Below, one piece after another: positions 1,130 through 14,138 of a stretch of DNA of 14,138 nucleotides. The notes beneath the pieces are model-generated. The model was not told the DNA's origin, searched no databases, and saw only the letters and a program-made list of their open reading frames with translations. Source of the DNA: a virus (lineage: Duplodnaviria > Heunggongvirae > Uroviricota > Caudoviricetes); the IMG/VR virus record IMGVR_UViG_2690316152_000014; one strand, written 5' to 3'. How positions within the stretch are numbered: the first letter of the stretch is position 1; each line of letters begins with the position of its first letter. The position numbers were made by a program, and so were the translations under genes.

Positions 1130-1166
1130 CCCCTATCGTTATAATACACGGTAGGGGCGTTTTTGT
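1130..1166 (+). terminator. Rho-independent terminator candidate (loop holds a TATAAT hexamer)
   Basis: Stem CCCCTATCG/CGGTAGGGG (one G-U pair), 10-nt loop TTATAATACA, then CGTTTTTGTTT. Confidence 0.5.
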
Positions 1167-1177
1167 TTGGAAATGGT

Positions 1178-2860
1178 ATGAAAACTAAACTGTATTCGTA
1201 TATTCGCTTCTCTTCCATGAAGCAAGCAGATGGTAGTTCATTTGAACGCCAGAAGAGAACAGCGAAAGAGATAGCCGCAAAATATGATCTTGAGCTAGTT
1301 ACTTCCTATCAAGATTTCGGTGTATCTGCATTCAAAGGAGCTAACAGTAAAACAGGTGCATTATCTCGTTTTCTGGATGAGATTGGTCGATCCGTTCCGG
1401 TTGGTAGCTGGCTGGTGGTGGAAAACTTAGACCGTATCTCCCGTCAATCTGTTATTGAAGCTCAAGAGCTATTCCTTTCAATCATCCGCAGGGGAATAAC
1501 AATTGTTACTGGTATGGATGGGAAGGTCTATAGCAAAGAATCGGTTAATGCTAATCCCATCGATTTACTATTGAGTGTAATGTTGTTTGCTCGTGCAAAT
1601 GAGGAAAGTCAGACTAAACGCAATCGCACTAACTCAAGCGCACTACTCAAGGTTAAAGCCCATCAGGAGAATCCACAAAATCCGGCAGTGGCAATCGAGG
1701 AAATTGGTCGCAATATATGGTGGGCTGATACTTCATCGGGTTATGTGCTTCCACATCCGGTGTATTTTCCTGTTATCAAGAAAATCGTTGAATTAAAACA
1801 GAATGGTTATTCTAATGGTCGGGTTCTTGATTATCTGAATGAAAGAATCACCCCGCCTAATTACACAACGAACAAAGATACCCCTAAGAAATGGGCGCGT
1901 TCTATGTTAGCCAGGATGTTCTCTAACCGCGCTTTGCTTGGTATCAAAGAGATAACCATTGAAGGTGTGACATATGAGTTAAAGGATTATTACCCACGAG
2001 TGATGGAAGATGCCGAGTTCTATCAACTCAAGAAGACTATAGGACTGAGGTCGTTTTCTTATCCCACTAAGTCTAGTCCTGTTATTACCCTGTTAAGTGG
2101 TGCTGGCTTGCTTCGATGTGGTCATTGTGGGGCAAGTATGGTTAAGAGAAGCGGAGCATCAAAAGAGAGATTAGCCCAATATCGTTATATGTGCGATGGC
2201 GCAGATAGCAGGAGGACTAATTGTGATCATCCAAATTGGGGCTTTCGTGGTGATCAACTGGATAAGGCTGTATTGCAATTGCTGGCTGATAAAATCTGGA
2301 TTGCTGAGGATAAGGCTAATCCGATCCCAGGTATGCAAGCCCAGATTGAAGACATTTCACGCAAGATTGATAACCTGATTAGTCTTTCTGCAATGACAGG
2401 AGCAACGAAGGAACTAGCCGATCAGATTACTACCCTGAATCATGAGCGTGAGACCATCTATAACCAGATTAAGGTAATAGAAGAGAACATGTATTCAGTT
2501 GATTCTCAAGGCTGGGAGAAGCTAGCACAATTTGATTTAGAGGATGTTTGCAGCGAGGAACGGTTAAAAGTTCGATTGAAGATTAAAGAAGCTGTTAAGT
2601 CTATAAATTGTTACAAGATTGATACCAATTATAATCATTTTTTAATGGAGTACATCGACGGGAAGACACAAAGGATAGTGATCGAGAGGTCACGCCGTAA
2701 CAGGAAAGGGAGAATTTTTGTAGACGTGAAGACTATCAATGATAGGCAGATTCTGGAGAGCAACGGGCTTGTTCTGCATCCATGTTTAGACATGCTGACA
2801 GATAAGAACTGGAAACCGGAGGAAGAAATACCAGGTCCATTACAGGAATTTGGAATTTAA
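1178..2860 (+). CDS. large serine recombinase (probable phage integrase)
   Basis: N-terminal resolvase-type catalytic motifs: YIRFSSMKQ (catalytic Ser), SFERQ, and LVVENLDRISR. C-terminal zinc-ribbon cysteines (LLRCGHCG ... YMCDG ... NCDH) followed by coiled-coil-like sequence. Start set to the ATG at 1178; the track's 1163 is a TTG. Confidence 0.88.
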   Translation: MKTKLYSYIRFSSMKQADGSSFERQKRTAKEIAAKYDLELVTSYQDFGVSAFKGANSKTGALSRFLDEIGRSVPVGSWLVVENLDRISRQSVIEAQELFLSIIRRGITIVTGMDGKVYSKESVNANPIDLLLSVMLFARANEESQTKRNRTNSSALLKVKAHQENPQNPAVAIEEIGRNIWWADTSSGYVLPHPVYFPVIKKIVELKQNGYSNGRVLDYLNERITPPNYTTNKDTPKKWARSMLARMFSNRALLGIKEITIEGVTYELKDYYPRVMEDAEFYQLKKTIGLRSFSYPTKSSPVITLLSGAGLLRCGHCGASMVKRSGASKERLAQYRYMCDGADSRRTNCDHPNWGFRGDQLDKAVLQLLADKIWIAEDKANPIPGMQAQIEDISRKIDNLISLSAMTGATKELADQITTLNHERETIYNQIKVIEENMYSVDSQGWEKLAQFDLEDVCSEERLKVRLKIKEAVKSINCYKIDTNYNHFLMEYIDGKTQRIVIERSRRNRKGRIFVDVKTINDRQILESNGLVLHPCLDMLTDKNWKPEEEIPGPLQEFGI

Positions 2861-2929: not shown

Positions 2930-3925
2930 TTACGCGGCCTCTAAGGGGCTTAAATCAAGTTCTAGGTCTTCCGGTTCCAACTCGGCTAATGGCATTGAGT
3001 GCATCATAGCGAAATCACGTTCTATATCATCTTCGGTTATGTAGTCTTCTGGGTTGATTTCGAAATCAGCATCAAAATATATTGGTTCGGGCGAATTGTT
3101 ATAAATGTACTCCTGTATGAATTTTTTCACATCATCCATTTTGCTGATTGGTAAAGTTTCAGTATAACCACGAGACATTAATTTACGACTAATCCGCTTA
3201 CCTTTGATGTGTTTTTTGATGCCACTTTCTAAATCACCAGCTTTCCAGCCGCAATCAAACGTGTGTGAATATTCAAGGGATAATATTTCATCGGTGTATC
3301 TTTGAGTTTCATACATTCGACGTAGTGGATTTTTGCGCGTAGTTATACCAAATTTTAAAAATTTTTCTCCTACACGAAAAACATAAAAAATAACTGGTCG
3401 ATGTGTATCTTTGTTCATCAAAGCATGTTGTTTCCCGTTTGAAAGAGCAGTTATAGCGCCACGTATAAGAGGACAAGTTAAACTCCCCCGATTACGACTA
3501 CTAAACAAATCGGCTTTGTTGTATATTTTACCATGACAATTACATTTTAGTTTTAGATGGGTTGTTATTCCTCTGTATGGTTCGGCTAGCCCTAAAACAT
3601 CCCAGCCAATCTTATTAAAGAAATTGGTTGAAACTTGTATGTACTCATGTTCTGTATACATGCAAGGTTTCTTATATGTTGGGTGATGGTCTTTTCCTGT
3701 AAACTTACCCATTAAGACACGTTGTAATAAAGGAGTTTTAACTTTATCGCCAACTTTTATATAAACTTTTGTTCGCTGGAATGGCTTATGGATAGGTAGA
3801 ACGAATCCCCCATAAATCCATCCATTAGATTTACATTGGTCAACAACCATTGATTCATATTCAGATGGGCTTTTAGCCGTTGATTTTTTGATGAAAGGAA
3901 TATCTTTAGCAAAAACGGTTTTCAT
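2930..3925 (-). CDS. Cys-rich GIY-YIG-like (T5orf172-like) putative homing endonuclease, paralog A
   Basis: ATG at 3925 with GAGGA RBS. Segment VIFYVFRVGEKFLKFGITT resembles a GIY-x(10)-YIG signature. Cys/His clusters upstream (LKLKCNCHG, LTCPL). Acidic C-terminal tail. Clearly paralogous to the 5053-6090 protein (shared WIYGGFVLP/LIYHGFVMP, KFGIT/KYGIT, GYTET). Confidence 0.55.
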   Translation of the reverse strand: MKTVFAKDIPFIKKSTAKSPSEYESMVVDQCKSNGWIYGGFVLPIHKPFQRTKVYIKVGDKVKTPLLQRVLMGKFTGKDHHPTYKKPCMYTEHEYIQVSTNFFNKIGWDVLGLAEPYRGITTHLKLKCNCHGKIYNKADLFSSRNRGSLTCPLIRGAITALSNGKQHALMNKDTHRPVIFYVFRVGEKFLKFGITTRKNPLRRMYETQRYTDEILSLEYSHTFDCGWKAGDLESGIKKHIKGKRISRKLMSRGYTETLPISKMDDVKKFIQEYIYNNSPEPIYFDADFEINPEDYITEDDIERDFAMMHSMPLAELEPEDLELDLSPLEAA

Positions 3926-3996
3926 AATAGCGAATCCTCATAAATTAAATTCACTATTATTTATTAGTATTTTTCTTGATAATAAAGATTGTTATT

Positions 3997-4668
3997 ATGT
4001 GTGATATTAAAATTAGCTTCATCAATTATAGCCATGTGAAAATTGATTATTCTCCTTCCATTGCAATGGAATTGAGAGATTATTTTAGCTTTGAAGTGGA
4101 AGGAGCCAGATTTAGTCCCAGATACAAATATTCGGGCTGGGATGGTCGTATTAGACTTTTTACCTATGAAAATTTGATGCCTATTGGCTTAGTTCGAATG
4201 GTTAGCGTGTTTTCAAAAAATATGGGTTATAGTGTTTTGATAGACCCTAGACTTTTGGAGCGGGAAAATGTCGATGAAAAGGAAATCGAAAAATGGTGCA
4301 ATGTCCTAGAATTATATTCTGGTGCTAACAGAGTTACCCCGCACTGGTATCAATCAAAAGCAGTCTTTGAAGGTATTCATCATAAACGTAGAATGTTAGT
4401 TCTTCCTACGTCCGCTGGCAAATCTGCTATCGCTTGTATGTTATCTCGTTGGTACTTAGAGAACTACGAAGGCAAAGTGTTGATCATTGTCCCGACGACC
4501 TCGCTTGTTCTCCAGATGCGGGATGATTTTGTTGATTATCGCCAGTTTCCTTATGAAGCTATTCATACTATCATGAGCGGTACTAGTAAGCATGTAGGGG
4601 ATCGCCTGATTGTTGTCAGTACATGGCAATCCGCTTGTAAACAGCCTCGTGAATGGTTTAAACAATAA
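3997..4668 (+). CDS. uvsW: UvsW-like SF2 DNA helicase, N-terminal fragment (223 aa), stops just before motif II; likely a gene remnant
   Basis: Collinear with the T4 UvsW N-terminus as recalled from memory: N-terminal domain, PHWYQ, Walker A LPTSAGKS, YLENYEGKVLIIVPTT, and WQS..KQPREWF. The ORF stops immediately before the expected DECH box. Start set to ATG 3997 (the track's 3976 is TTG). Confidence 0.7.
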   Translation: MCDIKISFINYSHVKIDYSPSIAMELRDYFSFEVEGARFSPRYKYSGWDGRIRLFTYENLMPIGLVRMVSVFSKNMGYSVLIDPRLLERENVDEKEIEKWCNVLELYSGANRVTPHWYQSKAVFEGIHHKRRMLVLPTSAGKSAIACMLSRWYLENYEGKVLIIVPTTSLVLQMRDDFVDYRQFPYEAIHTIMSGTSKHVGDRLIVVSTWQSACKQPREWFKQ

Positions 4669-4697: not shown

Positions 4698-5051
4698 TTA
4701 TCCATACCAGCGGGATTTAGTGGAACGGCTATCAATATGGGTAAAGGTTTTATATTTGCCTAAGCCATATTGATTAGGATATTTGCTATCTAGATACGCG
4801 TGAACAATATCAGGCGAGACACCTTTCACTACAATATCTGCGGCCTTGCCCGTGATATGAATCGAACGAGAAGCACCACCAACTTTCTTATTGTGTGCCG
4901 GACAACGGTTAGCACTGTTAATAACTACTGGTTTCCCGAAGTGTTCGCGTACATCCTCAAGAATTGCCAGTAATTCCGCGTCTACGGTATCTTGTCCGCA
5001 CTTTCCACATTTGCATTCAAATTCCTTGCGAGAAAAATGTTTGCTTAACAT
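4698..5051 (-). CDS. peptidase M15-family protein (zinc D-Ala-D-Ala carboxypeptidase-like); possible cell-wall hydrolase
   Basis: Motifs SANRCPAHNKKVGGASRSIH, GKAADI and FTHID fit the H...D...H zinc site of M15 peptidases. N-terminal CKCGKC cluster. Start is 1 nt after the stop of the upstream paralog-B gene, with a GGGGG SD. Confidence 0.6.
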   Translation of the reverse strand: MLSKHFSRKEFECKCGKCGQDTVDAELLAILEDVREHFGKPVVINSANRCPAHNKKVGGASRSIHITGKAADIVVKGVSPDIVHAYLDSKYPNQYGLGKYKTFTHIDSRSTKSRWYG

Positions 5052-5052
5052 A

Positions 5053-6090
5053 TTACCCCCTATATGTAATTTTATAGTTGTTGGAGTTTTTACAAAAATC
5101 CATTGCCATTTTTCTAATCTGCGCTTCTTTGGTTATGTCACATGTTTCTGTATATCCGTCTGGGATTAGTTCTTTTGGTGCAGCGTGACTTCCTATGTTA
5201 TGTTTTACGGAATATTCTAGGTCATTGGCAACTTTTCCGTCACCGAAAGTTATATACCACAATAACTTGTGAGATAATCCTGACTCTCTTGATTGTTGTG
5301 TGATTCTCTTTTGTGGGTTTAGGTGATTTGTTATTCCATATTTGATATAATCGCCTACTTGCTGGACATAGAAAACACCTGGTTTACTTTTGTTATACCC
5401 ACTCTTAGAACAGCACGGACAACCATCGTTTTCGTAAACCAAACCATACGCAACAATAGTATCTGATATATGGCCTTTTTCACACTTTAGTTTTAGTTTT
5501 GACATAGCCAAAATTGGGGATTTAGGTCGTTTTATTAATTTGAGTCTCTTTTCTTTGCACCCGTCTTCAATTAATCCCAACCATTCGTCGTCTGTGTGCT
5601 TTCTCTTATTAATTCCTCTCTTAATTGACCCACAATGACGGCACCCAGCATCATTGTTTATGATTCTTGTGATTATCGTTTCGTATGTGGTGTTACAACA
5701 AGTGCATTTATATGATGCCTTTGTATCAAGCCCTTTATATTCTTCCAACAAACCAACTAAAACCATCTCTTTACGTTCTAATACATTGCTTGCTTTGGTG
5801 AGAATGGTTTCTTCGTCTCTATTATTTTTCTTTGGTAGTTTTAAAGAATCTCTATAACATTCAATACAAGCACCTTGTTTCTTAAGGGATTTGAATACTA
5901 TCGTTCTTGATGTGTTGTGTTTTTTGCAAGTTACATAAACGTGTGTATATTGACCTTTCCACGGCATGACGAAGCCATGATAAATCAAACCTAATTCACC
6001 ACATCGTTTAATTGCAATTGTTTCATAGTCGTGCGGAGTTTTTCTTTTGAATCCGGTGTAATCGATATATTCAGCAAATAAAACTTCCAT
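5053..6090 (-). CDS. Cys-rich GIY-YIG-like (T5orf172-like) putative homing endonuclease, paralog B
   Basis: Three Cys-rich modules (KRCG..VTCKKH..CIEC; KCTCC..GCRHCG; LKCEKGH..GCPCC), then GVFYVQQVGDYIKYGIT (GIY-YIG-like) and DGYTET. GGGGGA SD upstream of ATG 6090. Confidence 0.55.
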   Translation of the reverse strand: MEVLFAEYIDYTGFKRKTPHDYETIAIKRCGELGLIYHGFVMPWKGQYTHVYVTCKKHNTSRTIVFKSLKKQGACIECYRDSLKLPKKNNRDEETILTKASNVLERKEMVLVGLLEEYKGLDTKASYKCTCCNTTYETIITRIINNDAGCRHCGSIKRGINKRKHTDDEWLGLIEDGCKEKRLKLIKRPKSPILAMSKLKLKCEKGHISDTIVAYGLVYENDGCPCCSKSGYNKSKPGVFYVQQVGDYIKYGITNHLNPQKRITQQSRESGLSHKLLWYITFGDGKVANDLEYSVKHNIGSHAAPKELIPDGYTETCDITKEAQIRKMAMDFCKNSNNYKITYRG

Positions 6091-7787: not shown

Positions 7788-10700
7788 TTAACGAATAGAA
7801 ATACCAGAAGTGGCTTTTTTAGCGACCATCACAACAACATCGGTCGCACTACCCGATCTACGGGTTGAAACAGGCCATGCTTTAAACTCTAAAGTCACGC
7901 TACCCTTACCCGCTGGCATGTCTATAACGCTACTGTATGCAATAGGTATTGGTCCGCCTGATTCTAATGCTTTCAGTAAAGTACCATTTTTACGCACTTC
8001 TAAACGCATACGGCTATACCCGGTTCTGCCCGGATTATCACCAGTTCCTGCAATATCGTATTCAGCGCCAGCAACAATAATTGGCGGAATGATGATTTGA
8101 CGGTCAAATTTATGGTCATCATTGATCGTTACGGTAACAGCACCATCAGGAACACCAGCATCACCTAAAGTAGCAGCACCACGAGGAAACGCCTTAGATA
8201 CAGTCTTAACAAAATCACCGCGTACCTGAGTAGCTTCTAACATACCCTTAATAACACAGGATTCGTTAATCGTGACGTTGTTCAGAGTACCGGAATCAGC
8301 CGTGATATTACCTTTGATTTTGGCATTCATGAACGTAGCGGACCCGTTCTTGTTGATATGCCATCCGGTAGATCCGTTCCAGTTGGAAGACTGGATATAG
8401 TTACCGATTTTAGCGTTATCAATTGCACCGTTTACAATCTTGGCGTTAGTGATCGCCCCGTCCTGAATCTTCGCGCTATTAATTGCAGCATTGCCGATTT
8501 TAGCCGTGGTGATTGCCGCATCAGTAATCTGGGCTGTGCCGATTGAGGCATTACGGATCATGGACCAGTCCATATACACCTTGTTTCCTTCGACACCAAA
8601 CGGAACAACACCCGCCGCGCCATCCTGTGGAGCTACCACCAGCTTATCAGCCGTAAAGATGATTTTAGTCGGTTGTGCCGGATCGTTAGTTGCGCTCATG
8701 TGAATACCAGCCACACGACCATCTGCATTAACTGCAAGATTGTATTTGCTGTTAATGGTTCCCTTCAAAGCATCGATCTTAACGTCCGCTTCTTGGTTAA
8801 CACCAGCAATCTTGCCATCCATTTCTACCCGAACTTGATCAATCTTACTTGCGCTTGCTGCCTCACTGGTTGCAATTGCTTGTTTCAGGGTAGTAGCAGA
8901 TGCGCTAACTTCTTTGGTGATATCACCTTTCAATTCAGCTTTAACCTGATCAATCTTAGTGGAGCTAGCTTGATCACCAGAGACAATCAGACTCTTAAGA
9001 GTATCGGCTGAGGCTTGGACCGTCTGTCCTGTTTCAGTAGTGATTTGCTTGTGCATTGCATCAATTTTAGCATCGGCATTTTCGCCAGCTTGAGCAATAG
9101 CATCAGCGATAGTTTCATCTAAGCGATCTTGTAAACCAATCAGGTCTTCCAGTGCTTCTTTGTCCTGATCTTCCCAACTAATCGAAGATTTCATAGACAT
9201 GAAATACGGTTCAGACCAGACAGCATCATCCATGCCGAAAATATCGTAGTGAGCACCACGGATATAATAATCACCATCAGCCAAATCAAAGGAAGTATGG
9301 CTAACACTATTCGTGCTTACTGCCCTTGCATCGGAGAAAGTGTTATCGGTTGCATACTGGATGATTGACCCTGCATAGTCATGTTCTACGTCATCTGTCC
9401 AGCTAACAAACGCAGTATTAAAGCCACCACGCGCACTAAAACCTTTCATCGGCTTATGCTGTGGGTTGATAGCCACTAAACGCGCTGGGGCGCTCTCTGA
9501 GTTGTTATATCCTTTAACCGATACTTCCACCGTCAGTTGACGCGAAAGGCCGTTAAACTGGTTCATATCAAGCGTATAAGTCCATGATTCAGGATCGCGG
9601 GTACGGTACTGAATAGACTTACCAGCCTTGTTAGTAACCTTGATAATGTATGCTTCAAACAGGTCACTAAACTTGTTAGCTTCGCCGTTGATCATCACAT
9701 CTAAGCCTTGCTGGTTATCCCATTCGATAATCAGATCATTACCTTCGAAAGTGCCAGCCGTGCTACCCTGATTTTTGATTCGAATAGTCGGAGTCGGCAA
9801 TTCATAGGTAACAGTAGGATTCTGGTTAATCAGTTCTACCCAATCGGATCGCGCGATGATACCGAAAGCACAAATACGGTAATCGTAAGAACGATCTTTA
9901 GCCAGTGCATTGACATTGAAGATTTGCTGTGAAGTCTGACCCAGCTTAATCCAGTTAGGTGATCCGCTTACACGATAATCAATCTGGAAACCATAACGGT
10001 TAAAATCTTCCGGTGCATCCCATGTCAAAGTAACGTTTTTACCGTAAATCGTCTCGCCAGTTGCCTTAATTCTGAAATTAGTAGGCTTCTGTACTGTCAT
10101 TGAATCCGGTAAACCACTTGGTCTATTGTCTGGAGTTGCCGCATAGTTCAGGTCAGTATAAACCTGAGAATTATATTCTGTAGCGGTGATAGTCATCATC
10201 CCAGCAATACCAGAATCAATCGAGCGATCAATTGCGGTAATACGCCATAAAGAATTATTCAGTTTTAATTCATCATAGGTTACGCTAATAACATCCCATA
10301 CTTCGGCAGTGAATGCGTCAGTAGTCATAAAGCTGATAACCTGAGTGATACGAGATTTATTTCGTTCAATGCTCGCTAGTTTATCAATCTGGTCTTTAGA
10401 CTTAACGAAACGATATTCTACATCCTTAGCAATAATTCGACCATCTGCGCGAACAGTAGCATCGTTTTCAGCATCAGCCGGATAACGTAGCATTTGCTCC
10501 GAATAGTCGATTGATGGTTCTTGATATACCGCGTTAATGGTATTGAAATAACCGTTAGTACCACCAGTTTTAAGGGATACTTTACCCATCATAATATTGT
10601 CTTCATTGAAGGTATGCTTAACAATATCAGGAGCATCCAGTTTCAGAGTAATTCTTCCGAAGGATTCGAACATTACCCCGCCGAAAGTCTGCATTAATCC

Positions 10701-11567
10701 GGTTAAGTTCTCTTTAAAGCTGGCGTTCGGATCACATGCACCGTTTGAATGTAGATCCATCTGGCGTACTTGTTTACGCACTTTCAGGAATGAATCAACG
10801 TTAATGTTTTCAATTGGTACACTAAGACCATATTTTGTATTTGTCAGATAATGGAAAATCTGATCCACGCCGTTAGTGCTTGCCTCAATAGCATTGGTTT
10901 CAAGGTTACGGATTTTAAGGCCGCAAACGTCTACTGTTACCTGGCTATTCGTTTGCAGAATATCAACACCAGCAGCCAGAGATTTGTCATCACGGCGTAA
11001 AACAATACACATGGTCGCAATACCGTTACCCTTGTAAGCATCGGTCCAGTCTGAGCCTAAATGATGTTTAGCCAGTGACAATGCGGTGTTAGGATTCTTA
11101 CCCGTGCGAAACTCAACTTCTAAAACTTTGCGGTATTCGTCTTTAATGTTGCCCTTATCGAGTACACCATCACGGATCGTCATGTTCTTACCGACCAACA
11201 CATTTTTATTATCGATAAAGAGTGCTTTGTAATGGTCGATTTCACCCTCTGCAACAGAAAAGATTTGCACTAACTTATTGTTTTCTTTCTTAGAAATAGC
11301 TTTGTAAACGCAGTTTGTGCCAGTACGGGTAACACCAAAAAGAACGGGTACTACTGTTTTTGGATCGGTTGATGTTCCTAGTGTCACCGCATTATCTGGG
11401 CTTTGTACTTTAGGCGTTTTTGGCGTAGCAGCTACGGAAGCAATCAAGGTCATTGCACCAGCAGCCATACCGATAGCAACTGCGGTCATAACAGAGAATG
11501 TTGCAGCAGCAGCCATCCCAGCAGATGCACCCGCAATAACCGCACCTACTAATACTTCAATTCCCAT
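7788..11567 (-). CDS. lambda J-like central tail fiber / host specificity protein (1259 aa) with an N-terminal extension resembling the C-terminus of tail assembly protein I
   Basis: Size and position after the K-like gene. C-terminal ~200 aa match my recollection of the lambda J receptor-binding region (SGTLNNVTINE, DDHKFDRQIIIP, VIDMPAGKG, VVVMVAKKATSGISI). N-terminal Gly/Ala-rich hydrophobic segment and VVPVLFG motif resemble the gpI C-terminus. ATG at 11567 overlaps the upstream stop (TAATG). Confidence 0.85.
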   Translation of the reverse strand: MGIEVLVGAVIAGASAGMAAAATFSVMTAVAIGMAAGAMTLIASVAATPKTPKVQSPDNAVTLGTSTDPKTVVPVLFGVTRTGTNCVYKAISKKENNKLVQIFSVAEGEIDHYKALFIDNKNVLVGKNMTIRDGVLDKGNIKDEYRKVLEVEFRTGKNPNTALSLAKHHLGSDWTDAYKGNGIATMCIVLRRDDKSLAAGVDILQTNSQVTVDVCGLKIRNLETNAIEASTNGVDQIFHYLTNTKYGLSVPIENINVDSFLKVRKQVRQMDLHSNGACDPNASFKENLTGLMQTFGGVMFESFGRITLKLDAPDIVKHTFNEDNIMMGKVSLKTGGTNGYFNTINAVYQEPSIDYSEQMLRYPADAENDATVRADGRIIAKDVEYRFVKSKDQIDKLASIERNKSRITQVISFMTTDAFTAEVWDVISVTYDELKLNNSLWRITAIDRSIDSGIAGMMTITATEYNSQVYTDLNYAATPDNRPSGLPDSMTVQKPTNFRIKATGETIYGKNVTLTWDAPEDFNRYGFQIDYRVSGSPNWIKLGQTSQQIFNVNALAKDRSYDYRICAFGIIARSDWVELINQNPTVTYELPTPTIRIKNQGSTAGTFEGNDLIIEWDNQQGLDVMINGEANKFSDLFEAYIIKVTNKAGKSIQYRTRDPESWTYTLDMNQFNGLSRQLTVEVSVKGYNNSESAPARLVAINPQHKPMKGFSARGGFNTAFVSWTDDVEHDYAGSIIQYATDNTFSDARAVSTNSVSHTSFDLADGDYYIRGAHYDIFGMDDAVWSEPYFMSMKSSISWEDQDKEALEDLIGLQDRLDETIADAIAQAGENADAKIDAMHKQITTETGQTVQASADTLKSLIVSGDQASSTKIDQVKAELKGDITKEVSASATTLKQAIATSEAASASKIDQVRVEMDGKIAGVNQEADVKIDALKGTINSKYNLAVNADGRVAGIHMSATNDPAQPTKIIFTADKLVVAPQDGAAGVVPFGVEGNKVYMDWSMIRNASIGTAQITDAAITTAKIGNAAINSAKIQDGAITNAKIVNGAIDNAKIGNYIQSSNWNGSTGWHINKNGSATFMNAKIKGNITADSGTLNNVTINESCVIKGMLEATQVRGDFVKTVSKAFPRGAATLGDAGVPDGAVTVTINDDHKFDRQIIIPPIIVAGAEYDIAGTGDNPGRTGYSRMRLEVRKNGTLLKALESGGPIPIAYSSVIDMPAGKGSVTLEFKAWPVSTRRSGSATDVVVMVAKKATSGISIR
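8395..8545 (-). repeat. in-frame tandem short repeats inside the J-like gene, encoding (D/N)(A/G)AI(T/N)x-AKI(G/Q/V) units
   Basis: Protein segment TAQITDAAITTAKIGNAAINSAKIQDGAITNAKIVNGAIDNAKIGN. Matching DNA repeats of GCCGATTTTAGC / CGCGAAGATTCAGGA type were read by eye; coordinates are approximate. Confidence 0.45.
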
Positions 11568-11986
11568 TATTCACCCCCGAATCTATAAACTTGTTCATAG
11601 TCAATGTCTGAAACAGGAACGGTCATCCAGATACCATCTTCGGTAATAAGGCCATAACCGGAATAATGAGGAACTACGGAATAATAATTGCGGTTTCCTA
11701 ACTTGTGAGCGGTAACTAATAAGTCGCCGTCCTGTAAATCATCAGTGACTAATTTGAAATGCTTCTTAATTGGTTGAAGGATGTTTGTATATCCGCTTAA
11801 TTCTTTGCAGACTTTCAAGCCTTCTTCTTTCGTAGAATATTTTTTATAAAGAGAATCATGCAGGTCAGTACCAGCGAGAATATCGATGATCTTACATGCA
11901 ATTAAATTGCAATCATTCTCACCTTGAACGAACTCCTGACCTACTAATGAATTGATATAATCGGTGATAAGCCTAGTTTTTAGCAT
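11567..11986 (-). CDS. tail assembly protein K-like, NlpC/P60-type domain only (139 aa)
   Basis: GENDCNLIACKI resembles the catalytic-Cys motif of NlpC/P60 and of the gpK C-terminal domain; a His lies downstream (PHYSG). No JAMM/MPN HxH motif. Start chosen at ATG 11986 with GGAGG 8 nt upstream; the track's longer ORF (start 12142) overlaps the preceding gene by about 110 nt. Confidence 0.6.
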   Translation of the reverse strand: MLKTRLITDYINSLVGQEFVQGENDCNLIACKIIDILAGTDLHDSLYKKYSTKEEGLKVCKELSGYTNILQPIKKHFKLVTDDLQDGDLLVTAHKLGNRNYYSVVPHYSGYGLITEDGIWMTVPVSDIDYEQVYRFGGE

Positions 11987-12032
11987 GTTGAATACCTCCA
12001 TGCAGTTATTTACTAGGCTTAGGGAGAAGGGA

Positions 12033-12686
12033 TTATTTTTTAGAAGAATGCCACTTGCTTTCTGAGTTCCACTTCCCGGCACGAGAGAAGAATAGATCGT
12101 TCTCGTTTCCAACATAGGATCGGTGGATACCATCGGAAGCATGACTACGGGCGTTTTTATCTAGAACTTCCCAGATACTATTAAGCTGAAATTCTGATTC
12201 GTTTTTACACTCATCATCTTCATGTTCGATGTTAATCCCGATGGAATCGACTACCCCACGGAAAACAGGGTAAGTAGTTTCAACCTTGCCCGTGTTAGGG
12301 TTCAGGAACACCATTTCGATTTTTACATCAGATTTATCGAATTGCTTGTTTCGAATCAGGGTGATGTATTCCTCGCGAACGTTAGAAACGGTTACGTTAA
12401 TCCCGTTGTTGTTGATCTCCTTCTCTTCGGTATTCGATGAGATTTGAAGAAAATCACCCGTTGCGAGATATGTAAAACCGTTGTAGTCCAAATCGAAATA
12501 CCCATCAGTAAGCCGTAGAACGTCCCCTGACGCGGTGACTGCTTCGATAATGTAAAACATCGATCCAGTGGAGAAAAGCTGTGGTAACGTCAATTTAGAC
12601 ACGTTCTGACCTGTCTGGTCGTTGTAGACCTCGATGAAGTCCAGATTAGTGCATAGTTTGCTGAATGATTCCTGAATAGTTGCCAT
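12033..12686 (-). CDS. minor tail protein (gpL position; 217 aa)
   Basis: Synteny between the upstream minor tail protein and the K-like gene. Start ATG 12686 overlaps the upstream stop (TAATG), with GGAG upstream. Unlike lambda gpL there is no C-terminal Cys cluster, so the assignment is positional. Confidence 0.5.
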   Translation of the reverse strand: MATIQESFSKLCTNLDFIEVYNDQTGQNVSKLTLPQLFSTGSMFYIIEAVTASGDVLRLTDGYFDLDYNGFTYLATGDFLQISSNTEEKEINNNGINVTVSNVREEYITLIRNKQFDKSDVKIEMVFLNPNTGKVETTYPVFRGVVDSIGINIEHEDDECKNESEFQLNSIWEVLDKNARSHASDGIHRSYVGNENDLFFSRAGKWNSESKWHSSKK

Positions 12687-13246
12687 TATACATTCTCCAC
12701 TAATTCGAATTTCATCTTGCCAATCTGGGCGATCTTCCAATCGATTTCTTCGGTTTTGAGAAGAAATTCACCCTCAACGTTCTGATACTTGACTACCTCA
12801 CCCGCTAGAACATGCTGACGCAAGTTAGGAAAGAGTTTCATTTCACCACCTGATTTCACGTCTTCGGTGATCGTGTAGATTTTCTTGTGGTTCTCAAACT
12901 GTACAATCGTTCCCGCTTTCAGTGTTCCGGTGAAGTTGGAGAGTCTTACCTTACGCCCACCACGGTCAGTACGAGCAGCAGCCGTAACCATCTGGCGTAC
13001 ATCACCTGTATATTTTGAAAAGTAAGATAGTGGCACACTGAAAGGACGACCAAAAAGGTGACGTGCTACAAATTCTTTTACTTCGTTAATATCCTGAGCC
13101 ATGAAATTAGCTGTAAATTCTGCTTCATAAAAATGAATGCCAGTAAAGCGACGCTGGAACTTACCAGAAATAGATTGCGCCTTGAAGAAAGGCTGTTTTG
13201 ATTTAAGAGTAAAATCTGTGATTTTAATATTCTTGGATTTGAACAT
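12686..13246 (-). CDS. minor/distal tail protein (gpM or Dit position; 186 aa)
   Basis: First gene after the tape-measure-like ORF. Its GGGGG SD lies inside the 3' arm of a 12-bp hairpin. Assignment is positional only. Confidence 0.5.
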   Translation of the reverse strand: MFKSKNIKITDFTLKSKQPFFKAQSISGKFQRRFTGIHFYEAEFTANFMAQDINEVKEFVARHLFGRPFSVPLSYFSKYTGDVRQMVTAAARTDRGGRKVRLSNFTGTLKAGTIVQFENHKKIYTITEDVKSGGEMKLFPNLRQHVLAGEVVKYQNVEGEFLLKTEEIDWKIAQIGKMKFELVENV

Positions 13247-13296
13247 AGAAAAGCCCCCATAGTTTTATGATTATTTATCACTATGGGGGCTTTTAA
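13244..13296 (-). promoter_or_regulatory. intercistronic stem-loop with a 12-bp perfect stem that sequesters the SD of the downstream gene
   Basis: AAGCCCCCATAG (13251-13262) pairs with CTATGGGGGCTT (13281-13292), with an 18-nt loop. Lies between the tape-measure-like stop (13297-13299) and ATG 13246. Confidence 0.55.
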
Positions 13297-14018
13297 TTAC
13301 ATCTTACGACGCTGGACGTCTTCTACATGCTGCGCAACTAATTTAGCATGACGTTTGATAGCATCCATGACCATCTTGTCTGAGCTATTAACGTTGCCGT
13401 TAATGTTCAAAGGCGCATTAACTTCAATCGGCTGAGAGTTGCCGCCTGATTTTTGAGCAGATAAGAAGTCTTTCAAATCACCGTTAGTACGCTGATCAAC
13501 TACTCGTTCACCCTTATCAAGCAACCATGTACCCTCACGCGGGATGTTATCGATACCATCATGCGCCATACCACTAACGTTAGTAGACTTGATGTTAGCA
13601 ATGCTTCCCATGTTCTGAGCAACAGCCAAAGCACTAGCGGCGATCTTCTGTCCTGTGGTTACGTTGGTCGGATCGTTCCATGCATCGGTGGCAGCCGTCC
13701 ACATGTTCACCGTCGCTTGCCCGATAGAGAATGCTTTATGAGCATTAAAAGCCATTTGCATAGCTTTAGTGTTTTCCTGCCCGAAAAGAGTCATTGCAGC
13801 AGAAAAACCACTGTACATATCATCGGCTATTGACTGGCGAGCATCAGCATATTTCTTCTCAATTGCAGCCATCCGTTTTTGATGGTTTTCGTTGAGTTTT
13901 TCTAATGCAGCCATCCGTTTAGCCGGATCATTAATACCATCGATCTTAAGACTTTCGGTCTTATAGTCTTGTTCAGCTTCCGATTTCTCTTTATCGATTG
14001 CATTAAATTTAGCAAACG
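13297..14018 (-). pseudogene. tail tape-measure-like protein, C-terminal fragment; 5' part cut off by an IS insertion
   Basis: The frame stays open upstream of Met 13914 to the IS junction at 14018/14019 and meets a stop only inside the IS (TAG at 14044-14046 on the minus strand). Ala-rich, helical composition and the position upstream of the M/L/K/J-type genes suggest a tape measure protein by synteny. Confidence 0.5.
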
Positions 14019-14138
14019 TGAACCGCCCCGGGAATCCTGGAGACTAAACTCCCTGAGAAAGAGGTAAACAGGATGACTAAAAATACACGTTTTTCCCCCG
14101 AGGTCCGTCAACGGGCAGTTCGTATGGTTCTGGAAAGT
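14019..14138 (+). mobile_element. IS3-family insertion sequence (IS629/IS1203/IS3411-like), left end; continues past the window
   Basis: Starts with TG: TGAACCGCCCCGGGAATCCTGGAGACTAAACTCCCTGAGAAAGAGGTAAACAGG, then an ATG encoding MTKNTRFSPEVRQRAVRMVLES. I recognise this as the IS629-group left inverted repeat and OrfA N-terminus. Confidence 0.8.
14073..14138 (+). CDS. IS3-family transposase OrfA, N-terminal 22 codons (partial)
   Basis: ATG at 14073 preceded by GAGG. Translation MTKNTRFSPEVRQRAVRMVLES is typical of the helix-turn-helix OrfA N-terminus of IS3-family elements. Confidence 0.8.
   Translation, partial: MTKNTRFSPEVRQRAVRMVLES

What the first reader, a model, noticed from the sequence alone, without database searches (positions are those of the whole stretch)
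13297..14138. IS3-family (IS629-like) element inserted into the tape-measure-like gene
The minus-strand tail ORF stays open from 13297 up to 14018, then crosses an IS left end that begins TGAACCGCCCC at 14019 and terminates 9 codons into the IS. The OrfA start MTKNTRFSPEVRQRAVRMVLES is at 14073. The N-terminal part of the tail gene must lie beyond the IS. This would leave the tail module non-functional and implies the phage DNA sits in a bacterial replicon (defective prophage or phage-plasmid) rather than a virion genome.
Basis: partly seen in the sequence, partly recalled or inferred. Interest (0 to 1): 0.6.

Follow-up and report, generated by a model that had tools for sequence, protein, structure and literature searches.

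The report
IS629 insertion splitting a prophage tape-measure gene
A common E. coli jumping gene (an IS629-type insertion sequence) has landed inside the tail-length "tape measure" gene of a chromosomal prophage, almost certainly disabling tail assembly; this is real but ordinary.

Summary
Window 14019-14138 is the first 120 bp of a 1310-bp IS3-family element of the IS629/IS1203 group. It is 120/120 identical to a complete, annotated copy. Homology to IS-free relatives stops exactly at 14018. The interrupted minus-strand ORF (13297-14018) is the last 239 codons of an 809-aa tape measure protein, by PHROG profiles (E 7e-36 for the fragment, 2e-64 for the full protein) and by gene order. The window ends because the draft contig ends there (E. 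coli GCA_001285145.1, CYBG01000025.1). A second contig of the same assembly carries the missing 570 N-terminal codons fused to the IS right end. Both junctions carry a 4-bp duplication (CGTT, which is AACG on the window + strand). A 100% identical prophage without the IS exists in another E. coli, so the event was a recent, simple transposition. The same junction recurs in other assemblies and in metagenomes. The element is a chromosomal prophage, not a phage-plasmid. Loss of tail function is inferred, not shown. IS629 insertions in prophages are well documented, so interest is low.

The parts
13297..14018 (-). 3' remnant of the tape measure protein gene: codons 571-809 plus the stop codon, and 2 bases of codon 570, of an 809-codon gene.
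   Evidence: Translation is open. PHROG tape measure families match, with phrog_1506 at E 6.6e-36 and phrog_13674 at 1.3e-32, aligned to the C-terminal ends of the profiles. It is 100% identical to L004:9229-9950, the end of the intact 809-aa gene L004:7521-9950.
14015..14018 (.). One copy of the 4-bp target-site duplication: AACG on the + strand, CGTT in the sense of the tail gene.
   Evidence: The empty site in L004 reads ...AATAGCC CGTT TGCTAAA. The window has ...GGTTCA|CGTTTGCTAAA in the tape measure sense. The other junction, in L013, reads ...AATAGCC CGTT|TGAACCGCC. The fusion protein predicted for a 4-bp duplication exists exactly (P0001 = CTT74881.1). The predictions for 0, 3 and 5 bp do not exist.
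14019..14138 (+). First 120 bp of an IS629-type IS3-family insertion sequence (full element 1310 bp), cut off by the end of the contig.
   Evidence: 120/120 identical to L002:2009-2128. There are 23,547 places in E. coli genomes under IS3 family transposase genes. The other 1008 bp, read from the right end, lie on contig CYBG01000029.1 and are 100% identical to the same reference copy.
14019..14043 (+). Left terminal inverted repeat (IRL).
   Evidence: Comparison with the reverse complement of the right end gives 13/13 terminal bases identical and 22/25 overall. The ends are TG...CA.
14073..14138 (+). First 22 codons of OrfA, the transposase N-terminal HTH part.
   Evidence: Translation is MTKNTRFSPEVRQRAVRMVLES. 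The full 108-aa OrfA of the identical copy matches Pfam HTH_Tnp_1 at E 1.4e-12, and OrfB matches rve at 1.1e-25.
12686..13246 (-). Distal tail protein gene (186 aa), the first gene downstream of the interrupted tape measure gene.
   Evidence: phrog_1302 distal tail protein, E 1.9e-16. Pfam DTP-pb9_B-dom, weak hit.
7788..12686 (-). The remaining downstream tail-tip genes of the same operon. These are a 217-aa tail protein (12033-12686), a DUF6950 protein (11567-11986) and a 1259-aa tail tip/J-like protein (7788-11567). They are intact but lie downstream of the IS.
   Evidence: Gene calls and Pfam hits (Phage_Tail_Tip, Ig_GpJ_C, DUF6950) in L011 and L004. PHROG tail and tail-fibre families.

Best explanation
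A single copy of a 1310-bp IS629-type (IS3 family) insertion sequence transposed into codon 570/571 of the 809-codon tape measure gene of a temperate siphovirus-like prophage. The prophage lies in the chromosome of an E. coli strain (draft assembly GCA_001285145.1). The insertion duplicated 4 bp (CGTT).

The transposase reads on the strand opposite to the tail operon. The insertion splits the tape measure protein into two parts. One is a 583-aa N-terminal product, made of 570 native residues plus 13 IS-encoded residues. The other is a 239-codon C-terminal remnant with no start codon at the junction; the first in-frame start is the ATG at 13914, with no evident Shine-Dalgarno sequence.

A tape measure protein is needed whole to nucleate and measure the tail. 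The downstream tail-tip genes now also lie behind 1.3 kb of antisense, untranslated IS. The prophage should therefore be unable to build tails, though it may still be able to excise, replicate and lyse.

Shown: the insertion, its exact site, both junctions, the duplication, the identity of the gene, the recency of the event and its recurrence in other samples. Inferred: loss of tail function and the polar effect on downstream genes.

The window ends inside the IS only because short-read assembly broke the contig at this multicopy repeat.
For: - **IS identity.**: 120/120 and 1008/1008 bases identical to a complete 1310-bp copy. That copy has TG...CA inverted repeats, OrfA with HTH_Tnp_1, OrfB with rve, and a PGAP-annotated programmed frameshift.
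- **Exact breakpoint.**
- **Tape measure identity.** (PHROG E 2.2e-64 for the full protein, 6.6e-36 for the fragment). Gene order is tube, two small ORFs, 809 aa, distal tail protein, tail tip. tblastn hits to phage genes annotated as tape measure.
- **Other half in the same assembly.**: P0001 = CTT74881.1 on CYBG01000029.1. This contig is 100% identical to the IS-free prophage L004 up to the junction, then runs CGTT followed by the IS right end.
- **Recency.** There are 0 differences from L004 over 11,333 + 9,234 bases.
- **Not an artefact.** The same junction occurs in metagenome scaffold L012, in 6 contigs carrying the 191-aa call, and in a second assembly whose partial proteins of 239 aa and 570 aa end exactly at the junction.
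- **Chromosomal context.**
- **Agreement with the literature.** IS629 makes 3-4 bp duplications and sits preferentially in prophages (PMC3271280).
Against: - No functional data exist. Loss of tail assembly rests on general knowledge of tape measure proteins.
- Pfam has no tape measure hit for this protein, so gene identity rests on PHROGs, synteny and remote tblastn hits.
- 182 bp of the IS (about positions 122-302) are not assembled in the source genome. Short reads cannot exclude a later inversion or translocation by recombination with another IS629 copy, because that would leave both junctions unchanged.
- The name IS629 was not checked against ISfinder.
Confidence: 0.93

Rival explanations
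1. The IS marks an IS-mediated deletion or truncation. On this view the N-terminal part of the tail gene and the head genes are gone, and the window shows the edge of a prophage remnant.
For: From the window alone nothing lies beyond the IS. IS629 copies often lack target duplications because of recombination. The reference copy in L002 has none, and only 21 of 47 O157 sites had one (PMC3271280).
Against: The same assembly holds contig CYBG01000029.1. It carries portal, capsid, fibre, tube, the chaperone-position ORFs and tape measure codons 1-570. It is 100% identical to the IS-free prophage and joins the IS right end with the matching CGTT duplication.
Confidence: 0.03
2. The junction is an assembly artefact: a chimeric contig end in which repeat sequence was wrongly appended to the phage gene.
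For: The junction lies 120 bp from a contig end in a short-read draft assembly.
Against: The identical junction appears in independent assemblies and metagenome scaffolds that end at different points in the IS (L012 ends 53 bp in). A second assembly has partial genes ending exactly at the junction. The reciprocal junction with a 4-bp duplication exists in the same assembly.
Confidence: 0.01
3. After the simple insertion, homologous recombination with another IS629 copy inverted or moved one half of the prophage. The two halves would then no longer be adjacent.
For: The two IS-bearing contigs do not meet, with a 182-bp gap. The element is multicopy in many E. coli genomes, with a median of 4 places per genome that has any.
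Against: Nothing positive supports it. The orientation of the two IS ends fits one element in one orientation, and contig breaks inside multicopy IS elements are the normal outcome of short-read assembly.
Confidence: 0.05
4. The interrupted ORF is not a tape measure protein but some other tail component that is complete without upstream sequence.
For: Pfam finds no family for it, and sources name it 'hypothetical protein'.
Against: Seven or more PHROG tape measure families match, and the fragment aligns to the C-terminal end of those profiles. The intact gene is 809 aa in hundreds of relatives. PGAP labels a tape measure protein within the matched region of one relative (H33). The gene position is canonical.
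Confidence: 0.02

Closest known systems
IS629 / IS1203 / IS3411 group of the IS3 family, as described in E. coli O157:H7 and Shigella
   Same: Length is 1310 bp. The terminal repeats are TGAACCGCCCCGG...CCGGGGCGGTTCA. OrfA and OrfB are joined by a programmed -1 frameshift, and OrfB has a DDE (rve) domain. The target duplication is 3-4 bp, and the element prefers prophage DNA (PMC3271280). It is 99.5% identical to a 13-place element in an O157:H7 genome and 100% identical to copies in other E. coli.
   Different: Nothing differs at the level of the element. It is about 95% identical to the copies PGAP labels IS1203 or IS629 family. That is within the 4-5% sub-type divergence reported for IS629 (PMC3271280). 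The exact ISfinder isoform name was not determined.
IS629 insertions in the Sp and SpLE prophages of E. coli O157:H7 (Rump et al. 2011, PMC3271280; Ooka et al. 2009 as cited there)
   Same: The same IS is inserted in prophage genes. Presence or absence varies between closely related strains, and an IS-free allele of the same site is found elsewhere.
   Different: The host prophage is a different, uncharacterised lineage. It has a serine recombinase, is integrated beside codA/codB in the identical IS-free copies, has a T5-like pb9-type distal tail protein, and has no cultured relative closer than 36% aa for the tape measure protein.
IEE-mediated excision of IS3-family elements, which restores interrupted genes (IS600 in lacZ of O121:H19, PMC9397093)
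   Same: An IS3-family element interrupts a coding sequence by a simple insertion with a target duplication. This is the kind of lesion that IEE-promoted excision can repair.
   Different: Neither the presence of iee in this genome nor any excision product was examined here. This is a possibility, not a finding.

Membership tests
IS3 family insertion sequence (IS629/IS1203 group) | Imperfect terminal inverted repeats ending 5'-TG...CA-3' | tested here: met
   IRL is at window 14019-14043. IRR is on L013 of the same assembly. The terminal 13/13 bases are identical and 22/25 overall.
IS3 family insertion sequence (IS629/IS1203 group) | Two overlapping ORFs (orfA, and orfB in the -1 frame) fused by a programmed frameshift | tested here: met
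   Only 22 codons of orfA lie in the window. On the reference copy, which is identical over 1128 of 1310 bp to the source assembly, orfA is 108 aa and orfB is in the -1 frame. PGAP annotates a programmed frameshift and an AL1L pseudoknot.
IS3 family insertion sequence (IS629/IS1203 group) | OrfA with a helix-turn-helix domain and OrfB with a DDE (rve) catalytic domain | tested here: met
   Pfam HTH_Tnp_1 at E 1.4e-12. Pfam rve at E 1.1e-25, plus HTH_21, all on the identical reference copy.
IS3 family insertion sequence (IS629/IS1203 group) | Short target-site duplication (3-4 bp for IS629) | tested here: met
   CGTT lies on both sides of the IS and occurs once in the empty site of L004. The 3-4 bp range is from PMC3271280.
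IS3 family insertion sequence (IS629/IS1203 group) | At least 95% nucleotide identity to the ISfinder reference, which is the criterion for an isoform of a named IS | not testable with these tools
   ISfinder is not available. As a proxy, the element is about 95% identical to copies PGAP labels IS1203 or IS629 family and 99.5% identical to an O157:H7 copy.
Phage tail tape measure protein | Sequence similarity to tape measure families | tested here: met
   PHROG phrog_13674 at E 2.2e-64, with phrog_1506, 2854, 339 and others. Pfam has no hit.
Phage tail tape measure protein | Gene position: after the tail tube and two small chaperone-position genes, and directly before the distal tail protein and tail tip genes | tested here: met
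   The order in L004 and L013 is tube (157 aa), 168 aa, 102 aa, 117 aa, 809 aa, distal tail protein (186 aa), 217 aa, DUF6950, then the 1259-aa tail tip.
Phage tail tape measure protein | Protein length sets tail length, and the protein is present inside the tail tube | not testable with these tools
   This needs virions. No cultured phage of this lineage was found.

The most novel reading that the evidence does not exclude
The insertion could be a reversible switch rather than a dead end. In a clone that carries the IS-excision enhancer, excision of the IS629 copy would restore the 809-codon tape measure gene of an otherwise undamaged prophage. That prophage is 100% identical to an IS-free copy over 20.5 kb. 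The lineage would then carry a prophage that is usually tail-less and non-transmissible but can occasionally be reactivated. The same insertion allele persists in several isolates and gut metagenomes, which is compatible with this reading but equally with plain clonal inheritance of a dead prophage.
Probability: 0.05. Interest if true: 0.3.

Novelty: already known. Interest (0 to 1): 0.08.

Why it matters
This matters little beyond annotation.

- It shows why this draft contig ends where it does: at a multicopy IS.
- It links two contigs of GCA_001285145.1, CYBG01000025.1 and CYBG01000029.1, into one prophage.
- It identifies two database 'hypothetical proteins' (CTT72439.1, 205 aa, and CTT74881.1, 583 aa) as the halves of one IS-split tape measure protein.
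- It predicts that this prophage cannot form infectious particles.

It is one more example of the documented preference of IS629 for prophage DNA. The insertion could serve as a clonal marker for the lineage that carries it.

Tried and rejected
- **Cultured phage relatives.** Megablast of the phage part of the window against cultured phages gave only an 85-89% match of 4216-4666 to T4-like uvsW genes. No cultured relative of the prophage was found.
- **Plasmids.** The same query against plasmids gave no match, so the phage-plasmid option was dropped.
- **Target-duplication predictions.** I predicted the N-terminal fusion protein for duplications of 0, 2, 3, 4 and 5 bp. The 0, 3 and 5 bp versions are not in the collection and the 4-bp version is. 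The 570-aa '2-bp' prediction coincides with a 'partial' protein that simply ends at a trimmed contig end.
- **Pfam on the tape measure protein.** No family matched.
- **PADLOC on the unassigned ORFs.** Nothing matched beyond weak helicase hits for the uvsW fragment.
- **Target-site consensus.** An apparent consensus left of IRL (..CAAA[C/G]G|TGAACC in several copies) was rejected as a ranking bias. Those copies were listed first because BLAST could extend into their flanks.
- **Outward promoter.** The promoter scan found no promoter-like site on the minus strand inside the 120 bp of IS that could drive the downstream tail genes.
- **Coordinate errors of my own.** A frame error and a one-base error in the IS end were corrected.

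Full report
**Observation**

On the minus strand, the frame that ends with TAA at 13297-13299 stays open through 14018. It then runs on into the next segment for the junction codon plus eight full codons, up to an in-frame TAG at 14044-14046. TGAACCGCCCC starts at 14019. An ATG at 14073 opens MTKNTRFSPEVRQRAVRMVLES, which runs to the last base of the window.

**The right-hand 120 bp are an IS end**

A 139-bp query across the junction finds 23,547 places in 3,581 of 5,426 complete E. coli genomes, all under genes annotated as IS3 family transposase. One complete copy (L002:2009-3318, strain OkiPb01684) is 1310 bp long. Its ends are TGAACCGCCCCGG...CCGGGGCGGTTCA, with 13/13 terminal bases and 22/25 overall in inverted repeat. 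It has a 108-aa OrfA and an OrfB in the -1 frame, and PGAP annotates a programmed frameshift and an AL1L pseudoknot. OrfA matches Pfam HTH_Tnp_1 (E 1.4e-12). OrfB matches rve (E 1.1e-25) and HTH_21.

The window's 120 IS bases are identical to this copy. The single mismatch in the 128-bp BLAST alignment lies in the flank.

The full element is 100% identical to copies in other E. coli and 99.5% identical to an element with 13 places in an O157:H7 chromosome. It is about 95% identical to copies PGAP labels 'IS1203 family' or 'IS629 family'. Rump et al. report that IS629 sub-types, including the IS1203 isoform, differ by 4-5%, make 3-4 bp duplications, and sit far more often in prophages than in the chromosome backbone (PMC3271280). 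The element therefore belongs to the IS629/IS1203 group. I could not consult ISfinder for the isoform name.

**The interrupted gene is a tape measure gene**

The 239-residue translation of 13297-14016 matches ten PHROG families, eight of them annotated 'tail length tape measure protein'. The best are phrog_1506 (E 6.6e-36) and phrog_13674 (E 1.3e-32). In each case the fragment aligns to the C-terminal end of the profile.

The intact gene in a 100% identical prophage (L004:7521-9950, 809 aa) matches phrog_13674 over nearly its whole length (E 2.2e-64). It sits in the canonical place. The order is tail tube (157 aa), a 168-aa ORF, ORFs of 102 and 117 aa in the chaperone position, the 809-aa gene, distal tail protein (186 aa; phrog_1302 and a weak pb9 B-domain hit), a 217-aa tail protein, DUF6950, and a 1259-aa tail-tip/J-like protein. 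Pfam has no model that matches it. The nearest cultured-phage homologues are at most 36% identical over most of the length, and several of them are annotated as tape measure proteins.

**Exact site and the other half**

Alignment to a roughly 90% relative (E. coli E275a, L001) loses all similarity exactly after window 14018 (A1). L004 (GCA_050422215.1) is identical to the window for 11,333 bases starting at that same base. Its empty site reads ...AATAGCC CGTT TGCTAAA.... The IS therefore entered after nucleotide 1708-1712 of the 2430-nt gene, at codon 570/571.

The window is the end of contig CYBG01000025.1 of E. coli assembly GCA_001285145.1. L011 is 100% identical to the window and the contig ends one base beyond it. 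To find the other side, I predicted the N-terminal fusion protein for target duplications of 0, 2, 3, 4 and 5 bp, using the right end of the reference IS. Only the 4-bp version exists exactly in the protein collection. It is 583 aa, made of 570 native residues plus FEPPRFSWRVFYL, and is recorded as CTT74881.1 (P0001). The 205-aa call from the window is CTT72439.1, in the same accession series.

After a homology search returned P0001, its contig could be read. It is CYBG01000029.1 of the same assembly (L013). L013 is 100% identical to L004 for 9,234 bases, covering the end of the portal gene, capsid, fibre, tube, the chaperone-position ORFs and tape measure codons 1-570. Then comes CGTT, followed by TGAACCGCCCCGGTTTTCC..., and 1008 bases that are 100% identical to the reverse complement of the reference IS.

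So both junctions, the 4-bp duplication (CGTT, AACG on the window + strand at 14015-14018) and 1128 of the 1310 IS bases are documented in the source genome. The transposase reads opposite to the tail operon. About 182 bp of the IS (roughly positions 122-302) are unassembled.

**Real, recent and inherited**

There is no substitution between the IS-bearing prophage and the IS-free L004 over 20.5 kb, so the insertion is recent. The same junction is present in a metagenome scaffold that ends 53 bp into the IS (L012). It is also present in six contigs carrying the 191-aa gene call. A further assembly has 'partial' proteins of 239 aa and 570 aa that end exactly at the junction. This excludes a chimeric contig end and indicates a clonal lineage carrying the allele.

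**Replicon**

No plasmid matches the phage part. About 60 complete E. coli chromosomes carry relatives at about 90% identity. In E275a the element lies next to a truncated hicB and ydcR. The copies identical to the window lie next to lacI-lacZ-lacY-lacA-codA and a shortened codB. The window carries a large serine recombinase at 1163-2860. This is a chromosomal prophage. For the source contig itself the flank was not displayed, because places with the same neighbouring genes are shown only once, so this last point is inferred for that contig.

**Consequence (inferred)**

The tape measure protein is split into two parts. The N-terminal part is 570 native residues plus 13 IS-encoded ones. The C-terminal remnant is 239 codons and has no ATG, GTG or TTG between the IS-internal stop and the ATG at 13914. 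That ATG is preceded by GATCCGGCTAAACGG, which contains no evident Shine-Dalgarno sequence (read).

From general knowledge of siphovirus tails, the tape measure protein is needed whole to start tail assembly at the tip complex and to set tail length. The distal tail protein and tip genes also now lie behind 1.3 kb of antisense, untranslated DNA, and no promoter-like site on the minus strand was found in the IS end. The prophage should therefore not make functional tails. Nothing here tests that. Excision of IS3-family elements promoted by IEE can restore interrupted genes (PMC9397093), but whether this genome has iee was not examined.

**Verdict**

The replicon is a chromosome, not a phage-plasmid. 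The duplication is 4 bp. The window ends at a contig break caused by the repeat. This is a textbook IS629 insertion in a prophage gene: already known in kind and of low interest.

Noticed in passing
window 13247-13296 (minus strand): The whole 50-nt gap between the tape measure stop codon and the distal-tail-protein ATG is one hairpin. It has a 15-bp perfect stem (AAAAGCCCCCAUAGU / ACUAUGGGGGCUUUU) with UUUUCU at and just past its 3' end, so it looks like a terminator. Free energy is -26.3 kcal/mol, z = -6.8. The stem is invariant in relatives of 90-95% identity (one substitution, in the loop), so covariation cannot be tested. It could be an attenuator or an mRNA-stability element inside the tail operon.
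   Followed up: partly
window 3976-4668 (+): This ORF is an N-terminal fragment (223-230 aa) of a T4-type UvsW helicase (Pfam UvsW_N, E 1.3e-33). It is 84-89% nt identical to Krischvirus and other T4-like phages over 4216-4666. This was the only megablast match of the window to any cultured phage. A related prophage (L007) carries a full 497-aa UvsW plus UvsY. T4-like recombination genes in a temperate siphovirus-like prophage are an unusual mosaic.
   Followed up: partly
window 2930-3925 (-) and 5053-6090 (-): Two paralogous ORFs (331 and 345 aa) match phrog_681 'endonuclease'; the second also matches an HNH endonuclease family. They flank the uvsW fragment and the M15 endolysin (4698-5051). 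In other relatives the matched region also includes genes annotated GIY-YIG nuclease or NUMOD3. This suggests homing-endonuclease traffic that may explain the truncated uvsW.
   Followed up: partly
window 1163-2860 (+); L015-L020; L001: The window carries a large serine recombinase (Resolvase, Recombinase and Zn_ribbon_recom domains). Prophages identical to the window sit beside codA and a shortened codB next to the lac operon. Relatives at about 90% identity, whose recombinase region is only about 82% identical, sit in hicB next to ydcR. Integration-site specificity appears to have switched within the lineage.
   Followed up: partly
L013:4554-9260 (outside the window, same assembly): The tail module upstream of the tape measure gene has a 1164-aa fibre with T4 Gp34_trimer and Peptidase_S74 domains, placed before the tube gene. 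A Gp38_N adhesin-like ORF lies between the tube and the chaperone-position genes. The distal tail protein resembles T5 pb9. No cultured phage has a tape measure protein more than 36% identical, so the lineage seems to be known only as a prophage.
   Followed up: no
L002:1990-3340: The reference IS copy used for comparison lies between an antirestriction ral gene and a truncated Rz/Rz1 pair in another prophage. It has no target duplication (AGG on one side, TTC on the other). That copy has probably mediated a deletion or recombination.
   Followed up: no
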